This document shows positions 1 to 34,438 of a stretch of DNA of 34,438 nt, in pieces (within the stretch, counting starts at the first letter, position 1; the number at the start of each line of letters is the position of its first letter). This stretch comes from a virus: the IMG/VR virus record IMGVR_UViG_3300025759_000031; one strand, 5' to 3'. The position numbers were made by a program, and so were the translations under genes. The notes beneath the pieces are model-generated. The model had not been told where the DNA came from, ran no database searches, and was given only the letters and a program-made list of their open reading frames with translations.

Positions 1-127
1 GTCCAAAACTCATCTTTCCAGCTAGACGCAGACGCGTCAGCCATTTTGCTTTCCCAATCTGCGCCATTTTGTATAACCTGCATCTTAGCCTCATGCTTAG
101 CTTGAGACTGTTGTTGCTTATTGCCTA
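1..127. repeat. Terminal direct repeat, copy 1: 127 bp identical to 34312..34438 (circular-assembly overlap)
   Basis: Base-by-base comparison of 1..127 with 34312..34438 shows no mismatch. The repeat cuts through an ORF, so it behaves as a circularisation overlap rather than a functional element. Confidence 0.95.
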
Positions 128-13198: not shown

Positions 13199-13395
13199 TA
13201 CTTGCCCATCATAATAATAGAATATCCACCCATACCCTTGGATTCAGTCTCTTCTGGTGTAGCCTTGGCATCATGCATGGTAGAATAACCCGCATCCTGC
13301 ATAGACTTAACCTGCTTCTTAGACTTCTCGCACATTGAATAGTAATCAATAGAGCGATATTCAACGCTATCTCTGGGATCTGGCTTCTCGTTCAT
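13198..13395 (-). CDS. Hypothetical protein
   Basis: 65-aa ORF with an ATGA overlap to the upstream mini-ORF. Confidence 0.5.
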   Translation of the reverse strand: MNEKPDPRDSVEYRSIDYYSMCEKSKKQVKSMQDAGYSTMHDAKATPEETESKGMGGYSIIMMGK

Positions 13396-13559
13396 TTCTT
13401 TTTCTTTCTCCTGGGCTTAGGCACCGCCTCTTGTGGCGTCCTTGGCGGTTGCCGGTCTGGCGGTCTAGGTGGGTTGTAACCCGCCGGTCGCCTAGATCCC
13501 CGCAATCCTGTTCTTGTCCCGCTTCCCCGAACTGTCCTTCCTGATCTTCGTACTGGCAT
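13392..13559 (-). CDS. 55-aa Arg/Pro-rich, extremely basic protein; first gene of the late operon
   Basis: Hand translation gives MPVRRSGRTVRGSGTRTGLRGSRRPAGYNPPRPPDRQPPRTPQEAVPKPRRKKKK*. A strong GAGGAGAG RBS precedes it, and its stop overlaps the next ATG as ATGA. It is GC-richer than its neighbours. Confidence 0.45.
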   Translation of the reverse strand: MPVRRSGRTVRGSGTRTGLRGSRRPAGYNPPRPPDRQPPRTPQEAVPKPRRKKKK

Positions 13560-13750
13560 AAAACTCTCCTCGTTTATTTTAAATAAGGCTTATTAAGCCC
13601 GCCTTACCCCCCCTATCCTATACTAATTCCACATAACCGCAATAGTGGTACTTAGAACAAAATGGAATATACAGCCAAAAGGTTATTCTTAAAGGGTTCC
13701 AGCCTTTTCAGTTTTGCCGTTTTTTGTATCTGGGTGGGAACTATATATTT

Positions 13751-14400
13751 GGCCGCCGCTGCCGTCGCCCCCCCGCCGAGTAAATTCGACCCACCTGTGT
13801 CTGCTGGGTAGTAGTGTTCGATGTGGCATCGAGCCGACTGGAGCCGATCCGCTGAGAGAGCCGAGTGAGAGAGCCGACAAAGCATCCCCAGAGCCGGTTG
13901 GTTACATCTGCATCCCTATCCAGCTGGAGCGCAGCGACTAATACCACCGCCGTCGGCTCCCGCGACTAATCGGGGCGAGCAGAGTGCAGTTCGGCAGCTT
14001 GCCACCTGTCTTCGCCTACCATTCCCATCCGACGGAGGAGCGGGCCGGCCTTCAACCATCATCACGCTTTCGGTCTCCGTTTTCCGTTGGCATTCGACCC
14101 TTGGCGTTGTTCCACGCACCCTCGGCTGTTTCCGACGCCCAAGTACCATAAACGGTCATTTCCTCAGTCGATAGATTTGTACTCGTCGTAGCCTGACATC
14201 CGTAACGAATCCACAGCCCGCACCTGTTCGCAAGGGCCGCGAGAATAACGGTTTCCCGCTGACTCAGTTCCCGCTTCAGCCCGCAAGCGGTCTGGCGTCC
14301 ACAGAGTCACCGTGACCCTCCGCGATTCACGCTCAACTACCCCCTTGCAACCAGGCACAGCCTGTGGAGTTCTACTCCTGTCGGCAACGACACAAATCAA
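13751..14400. ncRNA. GC-rich, ORF-free, helix- and repeat-dense island: candidate large structured ncRNA, structured leader, or origin (strand undetermined)
   Basis: Hand count for 13741..14400 is C~226, G~165 of 660 nt (~59% GC), against 40-48% in spot-checked lines elsewhere. The only ORFs are mutually overlapping 60-80 aa frames with R/P/G/A-rich, non-protein-like translations. Several long-range and local complementarities are listed in the findings. Confidence 0.35.
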
Positions 14401-14418
14401 TCAACTGAGGAAATAACC

Positions 14419-14760
14419 ATGGCACTTAACATCGAAAACAACCAAGGGCTTGCCTTCCACAACACCAAGGGCCTCATGCGCAACGAAAAAGCTCCGACCT
14501 TCAAGGGCGAGATCATGTTTGAAGGCCGACGATTAGAGGTTGTCGTCTGGGAACGGCAGACAAAGACAGGCAACAAGATGCTGTCGATGGCAGTCGAGGA
14601 CGCCCACGCCGCTCAGATCGAGCGAGCCGAGAGGACGCTGAATTACCTTCGCAACAAAAGCGAAGGCGACGAGCCAGAGCGAGGCGACGACATGGTGAAG
14701 GTCGACGAGTCACAGGACGATCACATCAAGCGAACAGCCGCCAAGAAGAAGGTGGCTTGA
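14419..14760 (+). CDS. DUF736-like small protein; first early gene, GC-rich codon usage
   Basis: 113 aa with a GAGGAA RBS. The pattern ...NEKAPTFKGEIMFEGRRLEVVVWERQTKTGNKMLSMAVED resembles DUF736 proteins of alphaproteobacterial conjugative elements, recalled from memory. Third codon positions are mostly G/C, unlike the rest of the genome. Confidence 0.6.
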   Translation: MALNIENNQGLAFHNTKGLMRNEKAPTFKGEIMFEGRRLEVVVWERQTKTGNKMLSMAVEDAHAAQIERAERTLNYLRNKSEGDEPERGDDMVKVDESQDDHIKRTAAKKKVA

Positions 14761-14766
14761 TTAACC

Positions 14767-14790
14767 AGGGGCTTCGGCCCCTTTTTTCTT
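14767..14790 (+). terminator. Rho-independent terminator
   Basis: A-GGGGC-TTCG-GCCCC-T followed by TTTTTCTTT, directly after the 14760 stop. Confidence 0.8.
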
Positions 14791-14806
14791 TCGTAAGGAG
14801 TGAGTT

Positions 14807-14947
14807 ATGGAGACTGTATTTATCTGGTGTTTAAACAAGGATGACGGTGTGCACGTTGTGCAGCCTGAATTGACGACAAAAGATGATGACGTAGCTGATG
14901 ACGACCTGCCGCCACTGTCTTCACTTGGCGAGTTATTGGCAGATTAG
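14807..14947 (+). CDS. 46-aa acidic protein
   Basis: An AAGGAG RBS lies 6 nt upstream. Hand translation gives METVFIWCLNKDDGVHVVQPELTTKDDDVADDDLPPLSSLGELLAD*. Confidence 0.5.
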   Translation: METVFIWCLNKDDGVHVVQPELTTKDDDVADDDLPPLSSLGELLAD

Positions 14948-14957
14948 CTCGCGTTTC

Positions 14958-14984
14958 ATGCCCCCCGCACAAGTGAGGGGGCAT
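14958..14984 (+). other. Stable GC stem-loop without a U-tract
   Basis: ATGCCCCC (14958..14965) pairs with GGGGGCAT (14977..14984) across an 11-nt loop. The following sequence is not T-rich. Confidence 0.5.
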
Positions 14985-15015
14985 TCAACCCTCGCAATTA
15001 TTAAAGGATTTGGTG

Positions 15016-16173: not shown

Positions 16174-17010
16174 ATGTCTAACAAATTCAAGCGCATTGTC
16201 GCCTTGGTGTCTGAAGCCATGCAAGATGAGTTAACTTGGCGGAAGACCTGGCAGTCGCAGTCTGGCCTTCATCAGAATTGGATTAGCAAGCGGCCTTATT
16301 CTGGGACCAATCAAATTACCACGATGATATCCGCGTGGAAGAATGATTATAAAAACCCGTATTGGGTAACGTACAAGCAAGCGCAGGATCTTGGCGGCAA
16401 CGTTAAGGGGCAGACCGCTACACCTGCAATTTTCTACGGCACTGGGGAGGACAAAGACAACGAAAAAACCTACAAGTTTGCCAAGCTATACAACCTCTTT
16501 AATCTTGAGCAAATAGGCATTGAGGTTCCGCCTATTCAATTAAGGCAGACAAAGCTTGAGCGTCCATATGAGATGGCTGATGCGTTACAAGTTAAGGTTG
16601 ATTCTAATTCATCTCACAACCCTTGTTATTCACCTGTAACAGACAAGATAAAGATGCCGATGCCTGGGCAGTTTGAGTCTGACGATTCACATCAATCCAC
16701 TTTTTACCATGAGTGTATTCATTCAACTGGTCACAGCAAACGACTTGATCGTGAGTTAACAGGCATGTTCGGCAGCGAGGACTATGCAAAAGAAGAGCTT
16801 GTTGCTGAGCTTGGCAGTGTCTTCTTGTGTGCAGAGCTTGGTGTTCAATACAACATAGAGCAACATGCTAGTTACATTCAGTCATGGCAAAAGGCTATTG
16901 AGTCTGATGCTAATTACCTACTGACTGCATCATCTGCCGCACAAAAAGCAGCTGAGTATTGCATGAGTCAGTTCCGAATGATGCGACAGTATGACAATGA
17001 AGCTGCGTGA
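16174..17010 (+). CDS. ardC: ArdC-like antirestriction protein (N-terminal ssDNA-binding domain plus C-terminal zincin-like metallopeptidase)
   Basis: 278 aa. The N-terminal part has ...PYSGTNQI...YWVTYKQAQDLGGNVKG... and the C-terminal part has FYHECIHSTGH...EELVAELGSVFLC, which is the HExxH-type motif and layout typical of ArdC. Confidence 0.8.
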   Translation: MSNKFKRIVALVSEAMQDELTWRKTWQSQSGLHQNWISKRPYSGTNQITTMISAWKNDYKNPYWVTYKQAQDLGGNVKGQTATPAIFYGTGEDKDNEKTYKFAKLYNLFNLEQIGIEVPPIQLRQTKLERPYEMADALQVKVDSNSSHNPCYSPVTDKIKMPMPGQFESDDSHQSTFYHECIHSTGHSKRLDRELTGMFGSEDYAKEELVAELGSVFLCAELGVQYNIEQHASYIQSWQKAIESDANYLLTASSAAQKAAEYCMSQFRMMRQYDNEAA

Positions 17011-18930: not shown

Positions 18931-19083
18931 TACAGTCAAGCGTGTCCAGGGCTTACACTCCTAGCCTGATTGAGTCGGTTGGCGGCGTCCCGATGGACAA
19001 AATCGCCGCTCCCCTCCGATCCTCCCGCTGCGGTGAGCTTGCAGGTTGTTGCTGCGATGGCAGGGCTGGCACTTCCACCCTAT

Positions 19084-19317
19084 CTAGCTGAGCGATGGTG
19101 CGACTTCTGACAGCCCCTCCGGAGCGGTTGATGGGACGGTGCTCTCCGGTTCCAATGCCCCTTCGATGGCACTGCGGGTGGTGAATGGCTTGCCCTTGGC
19201 ATCGACCATATATTTAATCCCCTGCTTTTCTAACACGCGAATAAGTTTGGGCGTGGTGTAAGCCTTGAAGATGTCAAAAAGTTGACGGTAATACAGGTAT
19301 TCAGATTGATCGTTCAT
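19084..19317 (-). CDS. Excisionase / DUF4224-like HTH protein with a GC-rich C-terminal extension
   Basis: ATG at 19317 follows GGAGAG. TPKLIRVLEKQGIKYMVDAKGKPFTTRSAIEGAL fits the DUF4224/Xis-type pattern. The last ~35 codons lie in a GC-rich patch. Confidence 0.5.
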   Translation of the reverse strand: MNDQSEYLYYRQLFDIFKAYTTPKLIRVLEKQGIKYMVDAKGKPFTTRSAIEGALEPESTVPSTAPEGLSEVAPSLS

Positions 19318-19330
19318 TAGACTCTCCAAG

Positions 19331-19354
19331 TAAAAAAGCCCCGACAAGCGAGGC
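19331..19354 (-). terminator. Rho-independent terminator candidate between the SSB-like and Xis-like genes
   Basis: The minus strand reads GCCTCG-CTTGT-CGGGGC (one G-U pair) followed by TTTTTT. Confidence 0.5.
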
Positions 19355-19377
19355 AAAGCATGGTTTTTAAATTAAAA

Positions 19378-21840: not shown

Positions 21841-22256
21841 CAGATGGACATCAATGGCTTGTAGACCATAAAGATAAACTTGATTTCTTTATTGCATTTA
21901 TTACTGCGGAACTTCAATCTGGCAGTCACCACCTATACTCAATTAAACCAGCTGGAAGAAGCGAAAAGCAAAACAATGCAATGCACTTGTGGTTTAGGCA
22001 GATTGCTGAAAAGTTAAATGATGGCGGCTACCACGCTACTCATCCATTCAACAATGAAGTTGAAGTACCTTTTACCGAGGTGCTTGTAAAAGAAATGCTG
22101 TACAAGCCCGTCATCAAAGCTATGTACGACAAAAAATCTACATCAGGGCTGTCTGGAAGGGAGCTTAGCGAAGCCGCAGAGGTGCTTGTACGGTGGCTTG
22201 CAGAACATAAAGGATTTCTTGTGCCATTCCCAAGCGAACTAAAGGAGTCAGCATAA
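21837..22256 (+). CDS. ninB: NinB/Orf-like recombination mediator
   Basis: ATG at 21837 follows GGAG. RSEKQNNAMHLWFRQIAEKLND ... STSGLSGRELSEAAEVLVRWLAEHKG parallels lambda NinB (RSLDQNRKLWACLGDV ... STSRMRVGEFAELLELIQAF). Confidence 0.65.
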   Translation: MTDGHQWLVDHKDKLDFFIAFITAELQSGSHHLYSIKPAGRSEKQNNAMHLWFRQIAEKLNDGGYHATHPFNNEVEVPFTEVLVKEMLYKPVIKAMYDKKSTSGLSGRELSEAAEVLVRWLAEHKGFLVPFPSELKESA

Positions 22257-22639
22257 TGGCTATTAAAAGAGAAGCTTGCGATGTGTGGTTTAGCAAGTGT
22301 GTTCGACACAGAGATCAACATCGCTGCCAGTATTGCTTTGGAGAGGGCACGGACTGCGCTCATATTTATGGAAGAGCACGAAAGTCTGTGCGTTGGAGTA
22401 TGGATAACGCAGTTACACTATGCCGATACCACCACAATTGGTTTGGATCCAATCCAGTTGCCTTTACTGATTGGCTAACAAAGTTATATGGATCTGGACA
22501 TATGGATATCTTGCGAGAAAAAAGCAACGCAGTACTTAAAACAAATAAAATTTTGCGTAAGGAAATTAGCAATCACTACCGTGCTGAGTTTAGAAAAGCA
22601 GAGGCTGAGCTTGGCTATGAAATTGTAAGCTGGAATTAG
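22256..22639 (+). CDS. NinG/Rap-like or HNH-type structure-specific endonuclease candidate
   Basis: 127 aa with CQYC...CAHIYGRA...RWSMDNAVTLCRYHHNWF, a Cys/His pattern. It lies immediately after the ninB-like gene with an ATG/TAA overlap. Confidence 0.5.
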   Translation: MAIKREACDVWFSKCVRHRDQHRCQYCFGEGTDCAHIYGRARKSVRWSMDNAVTLCRYHHNWFGSNPVAFTDWLTKLYGSGHMDILREKSNAVLKTNKILRKEISNHYRAEFRKAEAELGYEIVSWN

Positions 22640-30478: not shown

Positions 30479-31138
30479 CTATGGTGTATAAAAGATTGTT
30501 TCTTCAGGGTGTTTTTGTGCATCTAGCGCAATAGCATCAGACAAGTATTTATCTGCAATAGAAAAGTATTCTGCTGTTGATGTTCCTCCAGTTTCACCCC
30601 GCTCTCTAGCTAACAAAGCAACCGCCAAATGAATGACAGGCTGGCTAGGAACCGCAAGCGTGTCATCATCGCCGCTCAATGCGGTTTTGCGTATAACAAT
30701 TCTAGACTTTAAGGAGTACACGCCATCTGGCTTGGGGTAAATATCAATTTGCGTGTCACCATTTGCATCAACCCCGTTGTATGTGTAGTACTCGGGCGCG
30801 CCTGACGCTGGGGTTTGGACTAAAAACTTATCATCAAACCAGTTCTGGGTTTGATATTCCATTCTTAAATTAGAGGTGTCGTTGATTATATTTAACACTT
30901 TTCCTTTGTCACCGCTCCCTGTTAACGAATAAGTAAAGTCCCCAGATGACGTTGTAATTGTTAATGGCGAGCCTGACGTAGTTCTTAGCGCAGACCAATC
31001 CCATGCCGATTCAACAATTTCTTTTGCATCATTTACAAAATCACCCACCATCGTGCTGTAAGTATCGTTTGTAACAGTTGGAACTGTATCTTCGCGCAGC
31101 CGTCTTAATACATTGTTAACTAAATTTAAATATGTCAT
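30479..31138 (-). CDS. Head-tail adaptor / tail tubular A-like protein candidate
   Basis: 219 aa. The N-terminus MTYLNLVNNVLRRLRED is typical of podoviral adaptor-type proteins, and it lies directly upstream of the nozzle candidate. Confidence 0.45.
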   Translation of the reverse strand: MTYLNLVNNVLRRLREDTVPTVTNDTYSTMVGDFVNDAKEIVESAWDWSALRTTSGSPLTITTSSGDFTYSLTGSGDKGKVLNIINDTSNLRMEYQTQNWFDDKFLVQTPASGAPEYYTYNGVDANGDTQIDIYPKPDGVYSLKSRIVIRKTALSGDDDTLAVPSQPVIHLAVALLARERGETGGTSTAEYFSIADKYLSDAIALDAQKHPEETIFYTP

Positions 31139-34107
31139 GTAAACATTCCGCCAGAATTTCGCTTAATAACGTCGTCAAGAATCTCTCCTGAACTCATGTT
31201 TTCCAGCTTAGCAACGTAATCTTCATTAAACACATTAAGATCTTGCATTTCTGGAACTTGAAAATTTAATCGATAATCAAAGTTAGTGGCTTTTGGTACA
31301 GAAGATAACCCGCCAGAAGATCCTCCCCCATCATCCTTGTCGCCAAAGCCAAATGCCTCCATTAAAGCATCTTCCCCTCCAGGATCTTTATCTGCATTTT
31401 CAGGATCTTTTGTCCCAATAACATCAAGTGCAGGCTCTGGATCTTTTGTTGCTATTTCTTCGTTTGCATCCTCCCCGCCTTCCTTGTCATCTCCAGCGCC
31501 TAACTCTGGCTCTTTTTCTTTTGCCTCTGTTTCAGCGTCCTTCCCATTAATTATTTCGTAAACAGTTTCAGCGTCTTTTATAGGATTAGCGGCAGCTTCT
31601 TCTTGAGTCTCGCCATCCTTGTCTTCATTAAGATCTTCGTCACCTTCTCCGTCTTTTGTTGCTGGATCTTGGGTTTCGCCAGGATCTTTATTTCCAATTA
31701 AATCTTGATAGGTTTCGGCATCCTTAACGGGATTGTTTAATATTTCAGCCTCTGTTTCACCATCTTTATTATTAGGATCAGTGTCTTCAGTTTCGCCATC
31801 TTTTACTTCTGGGCTATCTGTTTCTTGCTCTCCATCTTTTCCATCAATAACATCAGCACCAGTCTCTCCATCCTTGGTCGGATTGTTTTCTCTTTCTTCT
31901 TGGCTTTCTCCGTCTTTAACTGGATTATTTTCTCTTTCTTCTTGGGTTTCGCCGTCTTGCCCGCCATCTTTGTTATCAAAAATAATATCAATGATGTCTT
32001 GGAAAAACCCCTCAGAGTCTTTATCGGCAATATCTTCATCTTCAGACTCCCCGTCTTTTGTGTCAGGATCTACGTCCTCTGATTCGCCATCACCGTCGTC
32101 ATCACCGTCACCATCATCACCATCTTTTGTATCAGGATCTACGTCTTCTGTTTCTCCATCCTTAGTAGTGTCTGCAAAGGCGGTGTCTTCTGCGTCTTTA
32201 TCAATGCCTGCATTATTTGCAACATTTTCTGCTGTATCTTTTTCTAGCTGCTCAGCTGCATCGTCATCTTTGTCTTTTTCTGCTTGTTCATCGCCTTCTT
32301 TTTGTGCATCTTCTGCATCAGTATCTTTTTGTTGTTTCTCAGCATTATCTTTTTCGGTTTGCTCCCCTTCTTTTTCTGCCGACTCAGCATCTTTTCCGCT
32401 TTGTTCTGAATCTTTTTCTTGCTGCTCTACCTGATCCTTTTGATCTTGCTCGGCCTGTGCATCTTTATCTGCCTCAGCGTCTTTATCTTTTTCAGCAGAC
32501 TCATCAGCATCCTTGTCTTTTTCTGTTTCTTCTTGAGCGTCCTTGTCTTTCTCGGCGCTTTCGTTATTTTTCTCTTCGTTTTCTGCATCTTTTTCTGCCG
32601 ACTCGGCATCTTTTTCTTCTTGCTCTGTTGCCGCATCCTTTTCTTGCTGCTCAGCATCATCGTCTTTGCGTTTTTGCTCTGAGTCTTTTTCGTCTGTTTC
32701 GGCCTGATCTTTATCCGCCTGCTCAGCATCCTTTTCTTGTTGCTCTGCTTGAGTTTCCTTGCTGTCTTTTTCGCCTTGCTCAGCATCTTTTTCTTTCTTT
32801 TCTGACTGAGCGTCCTTATCCGCCTGCTCAGAATCCTTGCTTTCTTGCTCCGCGTCCTTTTGGTCTTGCTCAGCTTGATCTTTGCTTTGTTGTTCAGAAT
32901 CCGCATCCTTTGCGGCTTGCTCTGCATCTTTGTCTTTTTGCTCAGCAGAGTCCTTTGCTTGCTGCTCAGCCTGTTCGTCTTTTAATTGTTGCTCTGCATC
33001 CTTTTGATCTTCTTCTGCGTCCTTTGTTTCAGTTTCAGCATCCTTGTCTTTTTCGGCATCTTCTGCATCTTTTTGTTTTTCTTCTGCGGCATCTTTGTTC
33101 GATTGCTCAGTATCTTTGTCAGCCTGCTCAGCATCCTTGTCAGACTTTTCAGCAGCATCTTTTTCGGATTGTTCAGCTTGATCTTTGTCGGCCTGTTCAG
33201 CCTCGTCTTTTTCTACCTGTTCGGCATCATCTTTTTGCTGTTGCTCAGCGTCATCTTTTTCTTGTTGCTCTGCTTGATCTTTTTCTAACTGCTCAGCCGC
33301 ATCTTTGTCAGCCTGCTCCTGGGCATCCTTATCTGCTTGTTCTGCGTCCTTATCAGTTTTTTCAGCCGCATCTTTTTTTTCCTGCTCAGCCGCATCTTTG
33401 TCTGCATTTTCGGCTTCTTTGTTTGTTCGCTCAGCCTCATCTTTTTGCTGTTGTTCAGCCTGGTCTTTTTGATTCTGCTCAGCCTCATCCTTAGCAGTTT
33501 GCTCAGCCTCATCCTTTTGATCTTGCTCCGCATTATCCTTTGCAGCATTTTCAATTTCTTTGCTAGATTGCTCAGCATCTTTTGCTTCTTGCTCAGCATT
33601 ACTGTCCTTAACTTTTTGCTCAGAATCTTTTTCTTGCTCTTCTGCGTCTTTGTCTTTTTCTGATTCTGTATCTTTAGCCTCAAGCTCCGCGTCTTTATCT
33701 TTTTCGTCTTCAGCAAAATCTTTTTCTTGTTGTTCTGTATCCTTTGTAGCTATCTCCGCATCTTTATCTATTTCAGAATCTTTGTCTTTTTCTGTTTCGG
33801 CTTGATCTTTTTCTAGCTGCTCTGCCGAATCGTCGTCAGTAGTATCGTCATCTACATCAGAATCTTTTTGATCTTGTTCTGCATCCTTGTCATTTTGCTC
33901 TGCTTCATGAAGCTTTAGTATTGCTGCATAACGCTCAATTAGCTGTATTCTGCTTAAGCCTTGAGTGTTAAAAGTTGCAAAACCTGGAGCAACGCCAAGA
34001 TCAATAAGATCGCGAAGCATTTTGTCAGCTGCTCGTTTGTAATGCAGATCATCTTCAAGTTCTTTTATTGCCTCTTCTGAGCTGTTTCCGCCATCAAACA
34101 ACCCCAT
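31135..34107 (-). CDS. Hyper-acidic low-complexity repeat protein (KD-periodic polyampholyte) with short non-repetitive termini
   Basis: 990-aa uninterrupted ORF, with ATGA-type coupling to the downstream adaptor-like gene. Roughly aa 75-640 are units like (E/D/Q)KDxAEQx. Roughly aa 640-900 are KDGE(T/S)...NP(V/T/I)KD units plus a DGDDGDGDDDGDG run. The N-terminal ~70 aa and C-terminal ~60 aa look like ordinary protein. Confidence 0.75.
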   Translation of the reverse strand: MGLFDGGNSSEEAIKELEDDLHYKRAADKMLRDLIDLGVAPGFATFNTQGLSRIQLIERYAAILKLHEAEQNDKDAEQDQKDSDVDDDTTDDDSAEQLEKDQAETEKDKDSEIDKDAEIATKDTEQQEKDFAEDEKDKDAELEAKDTESEKDKDAEEQEKDSEQKVKDSNAEQEAKDAEQSSKEIENAAKDNAEQDQKDEAEQTAKDEAEQNQKDQAEQQQKDEAERTNKEAENADKDAAEQEKKDAAEKTDKDAEQADKDAQEQADKDAAEQLEKDQAEQQEKDDAEQQQKDDAEQVEKDEAEQADKDQAEQSEKDAAEKSDKDAEQADKDTEQSNKDAAEEKQKDAEDAEKDKDAETETKDAEEDQKDAEQQLKDEQAEQQAKDSAEQKDKDAEQAAKDADSEQQSKDQAEQDQKDAEQESKDSEQADKDAQSEKKEKDAEQGEKDSKETQAEQQEKDAEQADKDQAETDEKDSEQKRKDDDAEQQEKDAATEQEEKDAESAEKDAENEEKNNESAEKDKDAQEETEKDKDADESAEKDKDAEADKDAQAEQDQKDQVEQQEKDSEQSGKDAESAEKEGEQTEKDNAEKQQKDTDAEDAQKEGDEQAEKDKDDDAAEQLEKDTAENVANNAGIDKDAEDTAFADTTKDGETEDVDPDTKDGDDGDGDDDGDGESEDVDPDTKDGESEDEDIADKDSEGFFQDIIDIIFDNKDGGQDGETQEERENNPVKDGESQEERENNPTKDGETGADVIDGKDGEQETDSPEVKDGETEDTDPNNKDGETEAEILNNPVKDAETYQDLIGNKDPGETQDPATKDGEGDEDLNEDKDGETQEEAAANPIKDAETVYEIINGKDAETEAKEKEPELGAGDDKEGGEDANEEIATKDPEPALDVIGTKDPENADKDPGGEDALMEAFGFGDKDDGGGSSGGLSSVPKATNFDYRLNFQVPEMQDLNVFNEDYVAKLENMSSGEILDDVIKRNSGGMFT

Positions 34108-34109
34108 GA

Positions 34110-34438
34110 CTACTTACCAGCCTTTAGTTTCATGAGCTTGTCAGCACCACGTATTCCAAATGACGCAGATACTGCAAGAAACAATAGATACTGATACCAA
34201 TCTGGAAGAGTATCCAAAGCAGAAAAACTGTCATGAACCCTATCAACAATAAAAGGGTCGTCAGCAATGATGCTCCAACCAAGAGCAAATAATGGCACTG
34301 CGAGAACAATTGTCCAAAACTCATCTTTCCAGCTAGACGCAGACGCGTCAGCCATTTTGCTTTCCCAATCTGCGCCATTTTGTATAACCTGCATCTTAGC
34401 CTCATGCTTAGCTTGAGACTGTTGTTGCTTATTGCCTA
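34110..34438 (-). CDS. Holin-like membrane protein, 3' portion plus duplicated segment; same gene as 1..176
   Basis: The tracked ORF 34110..34394 begins at the internal Met MQVIQNG. The frame stays open to the window edge and joins 128..176 across the circular junction. Confidence 0.55.
   Translation of the reverse strand, partial: GNKQQQSQAKHEAKMQVIQNGADWESKMADASASSWKDEFWTIVLAVPLFALGWSIIADDPFIVDRVHDSFSALDTLPDWYQYLLFLAVSASFGIRGADKLMKLKAGK
34312..34438. repeat. Terminal direct repeat, copy 2 (identical to 1..127)
   Basis: Exact 127/127 identity on manual comparison. Confidence 0.95.

What the first reader, a model, noticed from the sequence alone, without database searches (positions are those of the whole stretch)
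13751..14400. About 650-nt GC-rich, ORF-free, helix-dense island between the divergent late and early operons: candidate large structured RNA
Composition changes abruptly at about 13750, from roughly 40-48% GC (spot counts elsewhere) to about 59% (hand count: C~226, G~165 in 13741..14400). C exceeds G on the plus strand, so the minus-strand transcript would be G-rich and G-U-tolerant. The only ORFs are five mutually overlapping 60-80-aa frames with Arg/Pro/Gly-rich nonsense-like translations.

Complementarities I could verify by hand:
- A long-range closing stem: 13751-GGCCGCCGCT-13760 pairs with 14039-AGCGG(GC)CGGCC-14050, stacked on 13762-CCGTCG with 14030-CGACGG. Together they enclose about 260 nt.
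- A hairpin at 13816..13834: GTTCGAT / GUGGC loop / ATCGAGC.
- 13840-GGAGCCGA could alternatively pair with 13953-TCGGCTCC.
- 14100-CTTGGCG pairs with 14136-CGCC(C)AAG, enclosing the hairpin TCGG-CTGTTT-CCGA.
- A hairpin at 14216..14237: GCCCGC...GCaaGGGC.
- 14271-CCGCTT pairs with 14285-AAGCGG.
- Two adjacent tight hairpins at 14351..14366 and 14366..14378, just before the RBS at about 14408.

Short motifs recur in direct orientation: CCACCTGT / GCACCTGT (13791, 14002, 14220), GCGACTAAT twice (13934, 13962) and TTCCCGCT twice (14253, 14268). The island plus the GC-rich, G/C3-biased DUF736-like gene and its terminator form a roughly 1.04-kb cassette of foreign composition (13751..14790).

I see no hallmarks of tmRNA, RNase P RNA, group I/II introns or tRNA, and there is no adjacent RT, TnpB or IS110-type gene. 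If it is an RNA, it is not one I can name. Its size class is that of the large ornate RNAs, several of which are phage-borne.
Basis: partly seen in the sequence, partly recalled or inferred. Interest (0 to 1): 0.8.

Follow-up and report, generated by a model that had tools for sequence, protein, structure and literature searches.

The report
Strand-specific giant hairpin before phage SSB gene
The GC-rich "empty" stretch is not one big 650-base RNA: its right half is one arm of a conserved, strand-specific hairpin of 270-590 bases that overlaps the start of a small DNA-binding-protein gene, and it belongs to an uncatalogued family that in bacteria sits before ssb-type genes next to plasmid transfer genes, much like the single-stranded-DNA promoters of conjugative plasmids.

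Summary
**Observation.** It is correct: GC is 0.59 against 0.44 for the genome, there is no real ORF, and every listed helix exists in the window.

**Interpretation.** It is only partly right.
- The left part (13753-13993) varies between relatives and shows no fold signal.

**What is conserved.** One long imperfect hairpin is conserved.
- The core is 14150-14422. The outer arms, 13994-14149 and 14423-14581, reach 163 nt into the downstream gene.
- It folds far better than shuffled sequence (z -10 as RNA, -11 as DNA, minus strand).
- It is supported by covariation: 48 of 96 pairs show compensatory changes, and no shuffle out of 500 reached this.
- It is strand-specific. Mismatches are G·U/G·T on the minus strand, which is the template strand of the gene.

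**The family.** The apex motif is AATCGCGGAGGGTC…GGAAACCGYTATT.
- It defines a family that is absent from Rfam.
- It occurs in marine phages and in Alphaproteobacteria.
- There it precedes SSB and DUF6876 gene starts and lies about 310-330 nt upstream of DUF736 genes.
- One contig carries three same-strand copies pointing toward a nikA/mobC gene.

**Best reading (about 0.4).** It is a new, non-canonical class of Frpo/ssi-like single-stranded-DNA hairpin signal, here carried by a tailed phage.

**Rivals.**
- A sense-strand mRNA leader that hides the ribosome-binding site.
- A minus-strand RNA.
- A selfish palindrome.

The parts
13706..13752 (+). Nearly invariant block (CTTTTCAxTTT..TTTTTTGTATCTGGGTGGGAACTATATAT). 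It ends exactly where GC jumps. It is a candidate rightward promoter or regulatory site; its function is inferred only.
   Evidence: It is conserved in 9 aligned relatives (A3) and unique in the genome. It does not pass the sigma-70 consensus scan.
13753..13993 (.). GC-rich variable spacer. It is not part of the conserved structure.
Evidence: Relatives differ here by indels of more than 100 nt. It folds no better than shuffles on either strand. It does not extend the inverted repeat.
13994..14149 (-). Left outer arm of the hairpin. It pairs with 14423-14581 inside the coding sequence. It looks like a frameshifted mirror copy of the gene's 5' end but is non-coding.
   Evidence: Inverted repeat. 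Pairs covary with codon changes in the gene. The mirror reading has stops and frameshifts. There is no codon periodicity, and indels are 1, 2, 4, 5 and 7 nt long.
14150..14243 (-). Core hairpin, left arm. It includes the anti-Shine-Dalgarno segment 14154-14180.
   Evidence: MFE and z-scores. It is more conserved than third codon positions of the gene. Covariation.
14244..14256 (-). Apex motif, 3' half on the minus strand: GGAAACCGTTATT.
   Evidence: It is invariant across phage clades and bacterial copies. It lies within the R1 model match at 14239-14332(-).
14257..14313 (-). Variable apical insert, itself a small stem-loop (CCGCTT/AAGCGG at 14271-14290).
   Evidence: Among relatives its length ranges from about 10 to about 110 nt.
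14314..14327 (-). Apex motif, 5' half on the minus strand: AATCGCGGAGGGTC.
   Evidence: Same evidence as the other half. A model built from bacterial copies only hits the window once, here, with 28.4 bits and E 3.3e-4.
14328..14422 (-). Core hairpin, right arm. On the + strand it is the 5' leader, the Shine-Dalgarno sequence (14407-14413) and the ATG (14419) of the downstream gene.
   Evidence: I2: 27 nt, 89% complementary; helices 4-5 covary.
14423..14581 (-). Right outer arm, lying inside the coding sequence (codons 2-55).
   Evidence: (I1, I3, I5).
14419..14760 (+). Gene for a small DUF736-like / ssDNA-binding-like protein (113 aa) with foreign GC3.
   Evidence: It matches phrog_18154 'single strand DNA binding protein' at 4.9e-6. 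It has no Pfam or NCBIfam hit. The low-confidence model weakly resembles the Pur-alpha/PC4 ssDNA-binding folds. GC3 is 0.72.
14767..14790 (+). Intrinsic terminator-like hairpin after the gene.
16174..17010 (+). ArdC-like anti-restriction / zincin gene in the same rightward early block.
   Evidence: Pfam ArdcN 2.9e-19 and MPTase-PolyVal 9.3e-38.

Best explanation
**Shown.**
- The right 40% of the island, together with the first 163 nt of the next gene, forms one long imperfect hairpin. The core is 14150-14422 and the full extent is about 13994-14581.
- The hairpin is conserved by compensatory change and is much more stable on the minus strand. That strand is the template strand of the rightward SSB-like and ArdC genes.
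- Its apex carries an invariant two-part motif. This motif defines a family found in marine phages and in alphaproteobacterial mobile elements and chromosomes.

**Inferred.**
- The element works as folded single-stranded DNA, like the Frpo/ssi single-stranded-DNA promoters or priming signals of conjugative plasmids.
- When the template strand is single-stranded, the hairpin forms a pseudo-duplex that recruits the transcription or priming machinery. This would switch on the ssDNA-binding and anti-restriction genes just downstream.
- In the phage, the single-stranded state might arise by end resection after injection, during rolling-circle or lagging-strand replication, or during recombination.
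- In fully duplex DNA the signal is off. Any read-through sense mRNA would carry both arms and so bury its own ribosome-binding site.
For: **Structure**
- z-scores are -10.4 (RNA) and -11.4 (DNA) on the minus strand.
- On 16 loci, 96 long-range pairs are 94.6% paired, against 83% in shuffles and 40-44% when slid.
- 48 pairs show compensatory change, against 29 in shuffles and 13-14 when slid. None of 500 shuffles reached this.

**Strand bias**
- Alifold energy is -199.6 on the minus strand and -104.5 on the plus strand.
- In an unbiased arm-to-arm alignment, transition mismatches are G·T on the minus strand 26 times and on the plus strand 6 times in the window. The bias is the same in all 16 loci and in most of the bacterial and viral copies found by the pattern scans; three short extracts show no bias or a slight reverse one.
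- With DNA parameters the energy is -79.8 kcal/mol on the template strand and -53.7 on the sense strand. Only the template strand passes the < -75 kcal/mol criterion used to mine ssDNA promoters in PMC12672017.

**Comparison with a real ssDNA promoter**
- Frpo1 and Frpo2 of F show the same polarity of bias and a similar size. Frpo2 lies in the intergenic region upstream of ssb.

**Context of family members**
- The start codon lies 72-96 nt from the motif on the opposite strand, both in the phages and for the SSB (PF00436) and DUF6876 genes.
- True DUF736 genes lie 307-331 nt downstream in sphingomonads.
- In L073, three copies sit on one strand. Each lies just before a gene, and all point toward a nikA/mobC gene. 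This is the layout of the F leading region.
- Other copies lie near T4CP, ParA and ParDE genes.
- In Novosphingobium, terminators flank the hairpin and leave no room for an ordinary promoter.

**Window gene content**
- The downstream genes are an SSB-like gene and ArdC, a typical leading-region set.
Against: - No canonical -35/-10 is reconstituted. The sigma-70 scan of 13300-15000 finds nothing. My manual search for CTTGAC/CTATAT-type or TTGACA/TATAAT-type boxes in either arm found none. The only -10-like hexamer (TATTYT) is not conserved at its last position across the family.
- The carrier is an ordinary tailed dsDNA phage, with terminase, portal and HK97-type capsid genes. No ssDNA entry stage is known for such phages.
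- The pairing extends 163 nt into the coding sequence and includes the Shine-Dalgarno sequence. A promoter does not need this, and it fits an mRNA-level role.
- Roseobacter chromosomal copies lie between convergent genes or next to housekeeping genes, with no gene in the expected orientation.
- There is no sequence similarity to F's Frpo, and the R1 model has no hit in F.
- G·U and G·T bias cannot tell RNA from DNA.
Confidence: 0.4

Rival explanations
1. Sense-strand mRNA leader. Rightward transcripts start near 13752 and carry both arms. The hairpin then hides the Shine-Dalgarno sequence and the start codon of the SSB-like gene. It could also offer a long duplex for RNase III. Translation or stability would be controlled at the RNA level, possibly by the ssDNA-binding protein itself.
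For: - The SD/ATG segment is the best-paired part of the stem: 27 nt at 89% complementarity. Its pairs covary without breaks.
- A nearly invariant promoter-like block ends at 13752.
- The + strand fold is still strong (-108 kcal/mol, z -8.7).
- The start codon sits at a fixed 72-96 nt from the motif in many family members.
- On the + strand there is a GNRA-capped local hairpin at 14379-14392 (GCAA in one phage clade, GAAA in the other).
Against: - Mismatches are systematically A·C on the sense strand and G·U on the other strand.
- Many of these are conserved across clades. This is the opposite of what selection on the sense RNA predicts.
- In sphingomonads the hairpin is 307-331 nt from the DUF736 start. 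A terminator-like stem lies between them, and no promoter lies upstream.
- Some chromosomal copies have no downstream gene.
Confidence: 0.25
2. Minus-strand non-coding RNA. A structured RNA of about 270-590 nt is transcribed leftward. It acts either as an antisense regulator of the SSB-like gene start or as a leader or processing site of the leftward late operon.
For: - The minus strand is the better folder, with many conserved G·U pairs.
- The GC skew of the island matches that of leftward-transcribed genes.
- Roseobacter copies occur in varied orientations, as free-standing RNA genes would, and carry extra conserved flanks.
Against: - No promoter is seen on the minus strand to the right of the hairpin. 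One would have to sit inside unrelated coding sequences in each family member (SSB, DUF6876, DUF736-like).
- There is no terminator after the hairpin on the minus strand.
- In Novosphingobium a terminator lies immediately upstream of the hairpin in that orientation.
- The antisense part is locked in the RNA's own stem.
Confidence: 0.15
3. Selfish or relic palindrome. The element is a MITE-like repeated palindromic element, or a decaying inverted duplication of the gene's 5' end, with no function of its own.
For: - The left outer arm reads as a frameshifted copy of the gene's N-terminus.
- Several copies occur per genome or MAG, in unrelated chromosomal sites.
- The cassette has foreign composition.
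Against: - The core is more conserved than the coding sequence.
- Individual pairs covary while the mismatches stay fixed. This argues against both decay and gene conversion.
- Position and orientation relative to gene starts are fixed in phages and mobile elements.
- Stability is strand-biased.
Confidence: 0.08
4. One reading: one large ornate structured RNA of about 650 nt spanning 13751-14400.
For: - High GC, no ORF, and many local helices in the window.
Against: - The whole-island z-scores are not significant.
- The left 240 nt are variable and unstructured.
- The closing stem is not conserved.
- The conserved structure extends beyond 14400 into the gene.
Confidence: 0.02

Closest known systems
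Frpo / ssi single-stranded-DNA promoters of conjugative plasmid leading regions (F Frpo1/2, ColIb-P9 ssi1-3, pESBL classes 1-3)
   Same: - It is a long imperfect stem-loop of about 270-330 nt.
- It lies directly upstream of ssb-type and anti-restriction genes.
- The structure is stronger on the template (T-) strand.
- The DNA folding energy is below -75 kcal/mol.
- In a mobilisable element (L073) several copies lie in one orientation, each before an operon, and all point toward the transfer origin side.
- Supporting calls: 99-103 and 109. Literature: PMC11541004, PMC9849209, PMC12672017.
   Different: - There is no sequence similarity.
- No canonical -35/-10 is reconstituted.
- The pairing runs into the coding sequence.
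- The conserved feature is an apical internal-loop motif.
- The hosts are Alphaproteobacteria.
- This copy sits in a tailed dsDNA phage, which has no known ssDNA entry.
Single-strand origins (sso) of rolling-circle plasmids and the minus-strand origin of filamentous phages
   Same: - They are orientation-dependent long ssDNA hairpins. Host RNA polymerase or primase recognises them to prime the complementary strand (from my own knowledge of the literature).
   Different: - Those lie in non-coding regions of ssDNA replicons.
- No RS_B or CS-6 motifs are conserved here. A TAGCGT occurs in the apex of some phage copies but is not conserved.
mRNA leader hairpins that sequester the ribosome-binding site, and RNase III sites of phage early mRNAs (for example T7 R0.3)
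   Same: - It lies upstream of the first early or anti-restriction gene.
- The SD and AUG lie inside a stem.
   Different: - It is five to ten times longer.
- The wobble bias is on the wrong strand.
Large ornate phage-borne RNAs (GOLLD, ROOL, HEARO and similar)
   Same: - The size class of the island, the phage location and the absence of an ORF.
   Different: - There is no Rfam match at any threshold tried.
- The architecture is a single hairpin, not a multi-domain fold.
- It overlaps a coding sequence.

Membership tests
ssDNA promoter (Frpo/ssi type) | A large stem-loop on the transferred/template strand with strong DNA folding energy (< -75 kcal/mol in PMC12672017). | tested here: met
   The energy is -79.8 kcal/mol (z -11.4) on the minus (template) strand, against -53.7 on the plus strand. 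F Frpo2 gives -79.4.
ssDNA promoter (Frpo/ssi type) | It lies upstream of leading-region-type genes (ssb, anti-restriction), with the hairpin strand as their template. | tested here: met
   In the window the downstream genes are SSB-like and ArdC. In relatives they are SSB, DUF6876 and DUF736. L073 has three copies that point toward nikA/mobC.
ssDNA promoter (Frpo/ssi type) | The stem reconstitutes canonical -35 and -10 boxes (plus an UP element). | tested here: not met
   The consensus scan finds no site in 13300-15000. Manual inspection of both arms in phage and bacterial copies finds no conserved box pair.
ssDNA promoter (Frpo/ssi type) | Sequence homology to known Frpo/ssi. | tested here: not met
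   blastn against the F leading region gives only chance hits at E = 4. The R1 model has no hit in F.
ssDNA promoter (Frpo/ssi type) | It is active on ssDNA, silent as dsDNA, and the element enters the cell single-stranded. | not testable with these tools
   This needs in vitro transcription on ssDNA and in vivo time-resolved RNA-seq. The carrier here is a tailed dsDNA phage.
New hairpin family defined here (apex motif AATCRCGGAGKGTC...GRAAACCGYTATT) | The two-part apex motif sits at the tip of a long hairpin, and the motif strand is the better folder. | tested here: met
   The window has exact motif halves at 14314-14327 and 14244-14256 on the minus strand. A model built from bacterial copies only hits 14239-14332(-) at E 3.3e-4. 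Strand bias.
Rfam families (GOLLD, ROOL, HEARO, OLE, raiA, 6S, tmRNA, RNase P, introns) | A covariance-model match. | tested here: not met
   There is no match at gathering score in the window. There is none with E <= 10 in 13400-14900 apart from two chance hits. There are none in bacterial relatives, apart from a spurious hit to a plant miRNA precursor, plus one chance hit (E 0.95) elsewhere in L064. ARAGORN finds nothing.
DUF736 (PF05284), for the downstream protein | A Pfam HMM match. | tested here: not met
   There is no hit even at E <= 10. The resemblance is only at motif level (KAPxF...W...LS..V.D). True DUF736 genes do follow the same hairpin in sphingomonads.
Protein-coding gene or pseudogene in the island | A conserved ORF, codon periodicity, and indels in multiples of three. 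| tested here: not met
   The mirror reading has stops and frameshifts. Variability by phase is 0.22/0.21/0.19, against 0.12/0.04/0.16 in the real CDS. Indels are 1, 2, 4, 5 and 7 nt long.

The most novel reading that the evidence does not exclude
This would be a previously undescribed, widely distributed class of single-stranded-DNA-state signals of Alphaproteobacteria. It is a non-canonical analogue of Frpo, defined by an apical internal-loop motif rather than by -35/-10 boxes. Tailed dsDNA phages have captured it and kept it under selection. That would imply that such phages sense a single-stranded state of their own genome (end resection after injection, or replication or recombination intermediates). 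They would use that state to switch on ssDNA-binding and anti-restriction genes.
Probability: 0.3. Interest if true: 0.85.

Novelty: new variant of a known kind. Interest (0 to 1): 0.68.

Why it matters
**If the functional reading holds**
- ssDNA promoters are known only from enterobacterial plasmids and are recognised by canonical promoter boxes. A sequence-unrelated family would extend the principle to another bacterial class. This family has strong covariation, a clear strand polarity and the same gene partners (ssb, anti-restriction, DUF736).
- It would give a searchable signature for leading regions and anti-defence islands in Alphaproteobacteria.
- Its stable presence in a clade of marine tailed phages would raise a testable question: when is a dsDNA phage genome single-stranded early enough for this to matter?

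**If the functional reading fails**
- The element is still a robust, uncatalogued structured family that could be added to RNA and DNA motif libraries.
- It points to an alphaproteobacterial (probably Rhodobacterales-type) host for this uncultured phage group.

Tried and rejected
- **Rfam.** I scanned the window at gathering score and at E <= 10, and the bacterial relatives as well. Nothing real turned up.
- **tRNA/tmRNA.** None found.
- **blastn.** The island has no match in phage or plasmid collections. A tblastn of the protein against phages also finds nothing.
- **Whole-island folding.** Not significant.
- **Decayed or divergent paralogue in the left arm.** Rejected: there are stops and frameshifts, no periodicity, and indels that are not multiples of three.
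- **Extension of the inverted repeat into 13753-13993.** None found.
- **Second copy in the window, including the second GC-rich island at 18931-19200.** None found, and there is no fold signal there.
- **Sigma-70 or alphaproteobacterial promoter boxes in the arms.** None is convincing (and manual reading).
- **Other known motifs.** I considered a CS-6-like TAGCGT in the apex, a CcrM GANTC site, a kink-turn, a hammerhead core and 6S RNA from memory. I dropped each because it is not conserved or does not match.
- **Protein annotation.** Pfam, NCBIfam and PDB sequence searches of the 113-aa protein find nothing.
- **Protein structure.** The AlphaFold model has low confidence (pLDDT 58). Its Pur-alpha/PC4 matches are not significant.
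- **Physical genome end near 13750.** This could not be tested. The 127-nt terminal overlap only shows a circular or terminally redundant assembly.
Full report
**1. The window.** The first and last 127 nt are identical, so the 34.4-kb window is a complete circular or terminally redundant assembly.
- It is a tailed dsDNA phage. It encodes a large terminase, an SU10-type portal, an HK97-type capsid, tail fibres and an internal transglycosylase protein. An Erf-type annealing protein and an ArdC-like protein are also present.
- No RNA or DNA polymerase was recognised.
- Leftward structural genes end at 13559. A rightward block starts at 14419.

**2. Checking the observation.**
- The composition claim is exact. 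13741-14400 contains C 226 and G 165, giving GC 0.592 against 0.443 for the genome.
- Only short overlapping ORFs occur in the island.
- The next gene (14419-14760) has GC3 of 0.72, against about 0.39-0.47 in four other genes. The 'foreign cassette' remark therefore holds.
- As a unit, however, the 650 nt fold no better than shuffled sequence (z -0.36 and -1.28).
- The left part, 13753-13993, has no fold signal either.

**3. What is actually there.** A self-comparison shows a large imperfect inverted repeat centred near 14287.
- The inner 273 nt (14150-14422) fold into a single long hairpin.
  - As RNA, the plus strand gives -108 kcal/mol (z -8.7) and the minus strand -145 kcal/mol (z -10.4).
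  - As DNA, the plus strand gives -53.7 (z -7.1) and the minus strand -79.8 (z -11.4).
- The base of this core pairs the Shine-Dalgarno sequence and the ATG of the next gene with an anti-SD segment at 14154-14180. This helix is 27 nt long and 89% complementary.
- Pairing continues outward. 13994-14149 pairs with 14423-14581, which is the first 163 nt of the coding sequence.

**4. Relatives.**
- Protein-guided scans returned 36 loci from marine viral and metagenome contigs, several of them duplicates of the same contig, in two clades.
- Most relatives with enough upstream sequence keep the inverted repeat. The most distant ones keep at least the core hairpin.
- The core is more conserved than the coding sequence. 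Long invariant blocks flank a variable apical insert of about 10-110 nt.
- The region 13826-13990 cannot be aligned between relatives, which differ by indels of more than 100 nt.
- A nearly invariant block ends at 13752, exactly at the GC jump. It is unique in the genome. It may be a promoter, but it fails a sigma-70 consensus scan.

**5. Covariation.**
- On the plus-strand alignment of 14 loci, RNAalifold predicts 143 pairs. Of these, 34 show compensatory double changes, including pairs between the left outer arm and codons of the gene.
- On a minus-strand alignment of 16 loci from both clades, I tested 96 long-range pairs.
  - They are 94.6% paired, against 83.3% in column shuffles and 40-44% when partners are slid.
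  - 48 pairs carry compensatory changes, against 29 in shuffles and 13-14 when slid.
  - None of 500 shuffles reaches the observed values.
- The left arm is not a gene.
  - The mirror reading has stops and frameshifts.
  - There is no codon periodicity.
  - Indels are 1, 2, 4, 5 and 7 nt long.
- Fixed mismatches combined with pair-by-pair covariation argue against both simple decay and gene conversion.

**6. Strand polarity.**
- In an arm-against-arm DNA alignment that scores both transition types equally, mismatches are G·T on the minus strand far more often than on the plus strand. In the window the counts are 8 against 0 in the core and 18 against 6 in the outer arms. All 16 loci show the same bias.
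- Alifold energy is -199.6 on the minus strand and -104.5 on the plus strand.
- The same 96 pairs are 94.6% paired on the minus strand and 82.1% on the plus strand.
- Several G·U pairs are conserved across both clades.
- The functional strand is therefore the minus strand, which is the template strand of the rightward genes.
- This bias cannot distinguish RNA from DNA.

**7. A wider family.** The apex carries two invariant halves on the minus strand: AATCGCGGAGGGTC (14314-14327) and GGAAACCGTTATT (14244-14256).
- A gapped pattern built from them finds 17 viral contigs and 19 bacterial contigs. The bacterial hits include Sulfitobacter, Rhodobacter, Tropicimonas, Psychromarinibacter, Novosphingobium, Sphingomonas and several MAGs.
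- In the copies with enough flanking sequence, the motif sits at the tip of a long hairpin. The motif strand folds better in all but three short extracts.
- A covariance model built from the bacterial copies alone hits the window exactly once, at 14239-14332 on the minus strand (28.4 bits, E 3.3e-4).
- No Rfam family matches any of these loci.
- The library search found no paper that links Frpo-type elements with Alphaproteobacteria.

**8. Context of the family.**
- In the phages, and in several bacterial mobile-element loci, a gene starts 72-96 nt from the motif on the opposite strand. These genes are:
  - the DUF736-like phage protein;
  - a canonical SSB (PF00436);
  - a DUF6876 protein;
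  - small 'IWxNE...FYSV' proteins.
- In Novosphingobium and Sphingomonas, true DUF736 genes lie 307-331 nt downstream. Terminators flank the hairpin and leave no room for an ordinary promoter.
- Contig L073 has three copies on one strand. Each lies immediately before a gene (ssb, an unknown ORF, DUF6876), and all point toward a nikA/mobC gene.
- That is the layout of the F leading region, where ssb and psiB point toward oriT and traM.
- Other copies lie near a type IV coupling protein, ParA and ParDE.
- Roseobacter chromosomal copies do not fit this pattern. Some sit between convergent genes or next to pheT, and they carry extra conserved flanks.

**9. Comparison with real ssDNA promoters.** According to PMC11541004, PMC9849209 and PMC12672017, Frpo/ssi elements share these features:
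- They are large stem-loops on the transferred strand.
- They reconstitute -35/-10 boxes.
- They lie before ssb, psiB, ardA and similar genes.
- They are active only as ssDNA.
- They are mined with a DNA folding threshold of -75 kcal/mol.

F's Frpo1 and Frpo2 show the same polarity of bias as this element.
- With RNA parameters, the T-strand gives -273 and -243 kcal/mol, against -243 and -215 for the sense strand.
- Frpo2 gives -79.4 kcal/mol as DNA, nearly the same as the -79.8 found here.

The differences are clear.
- There is no sequence similarity.
- I could find no promoter boxes.
- The pairing runs into the coding sequence.
- The carrier is a dsDNA phage.

**10. Verdict.**
- The structural statement is well supported: a conserved, strand-specific hairpin that belongs to a new family linked to ssb-type genes.
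- The mechanism is inferred. I favour a Frpo/ssi-like single-stranded-DNA signal (about 0.4).
- The rivals are a sense mRNA leader that sequesters the ribosome-binding site (about 0.25), a minus-strand RNA (about 0.15) and a selfish palindrome (about 0.08).

Noticed in passing
window 1-127 and 34312-34438: The first 127 nt are identical to the last 127 nt. The window is therefore a complete circular or terminally redundant phage genome of about 34.3 kb.
   Followed up: partly
window 18931-19200: A second GC-rich island (GC 0.60) lies between convergent genes. It partly covers the 3' end of ORF 19084-19356(-). It shows no unusual folding and carries no copy of the hairpin motif.
   Followed up: partly
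window 31500-33900: AT skew is extreme (-0.4 to -0.7 on the + strand) inside the 990-aa ORF 31135-34107(-), which has no PHROG hit.
   Followed up: no
window 14379-14392 (+ strand): There is a local hairpin TGTCG-GCAA-CGACA in the sense leader. Its loop stays GNRA in both phage clades (GCAA in one, GAAA in the other). It competes with the long hairpin and could matter for an mRNA-level role.
   Followed up: partly
window 13580-13625: A conserved GGGC...GCCC hairpin is followed by CCCCCCCTATCCTATA just upstream of the first leftward gene. It is unique in the genome and may be the leftward promoter or leader.
   Followed up: partly
L061, L064, L067, L068, L074, L075 (Sulfitobacter and related contigs): Chromosomal copies of the hairpin share a closing helix GGAGCCGCC/GGCGGCTCC. 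They also share an extra conserved 3' flank (GGTGAGCCTGMAGC ... GCGATGAGCGCAGCGAAGAG). Several copies occur in a single MAG, in varied gene contexts such as xthA/HNH and pheT. This is not explained by the leading-region model.
   Followed up: partly
L066, L077, L072 (Novosphingobium, Sphingomonas): The hairpin is boxed in by terminator-like stem-loops on both sides. It lies 307-331 nt upstream of a true DUF736 gene, which seems to have its own AT-rich promoter region.
   Followed up: partly
L009, L016, L022, L025, L034, L084 (related contigs): Several metagenome contigs of relatives begin inside the hairpin or right next to it. This may reflect assembly breaks at the inverted repeat.
   Followed up: no
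window 22256-22639 (+): A 127-aa protein has a weak match to the HNH part of the IscB model (NF040563, E 5.4e-4, far below the cutoff). It is probably just an HNH endonuclease.
   Followed up: no
whole window / host: The hairpin family occurs otherwise in Rhodobacterales and Sphingomonadales, and the cassette is GC-rich. Both suggest an alphaproteobacterial host, and capture of the cassette from a conjugative element.
   Followed up: partly
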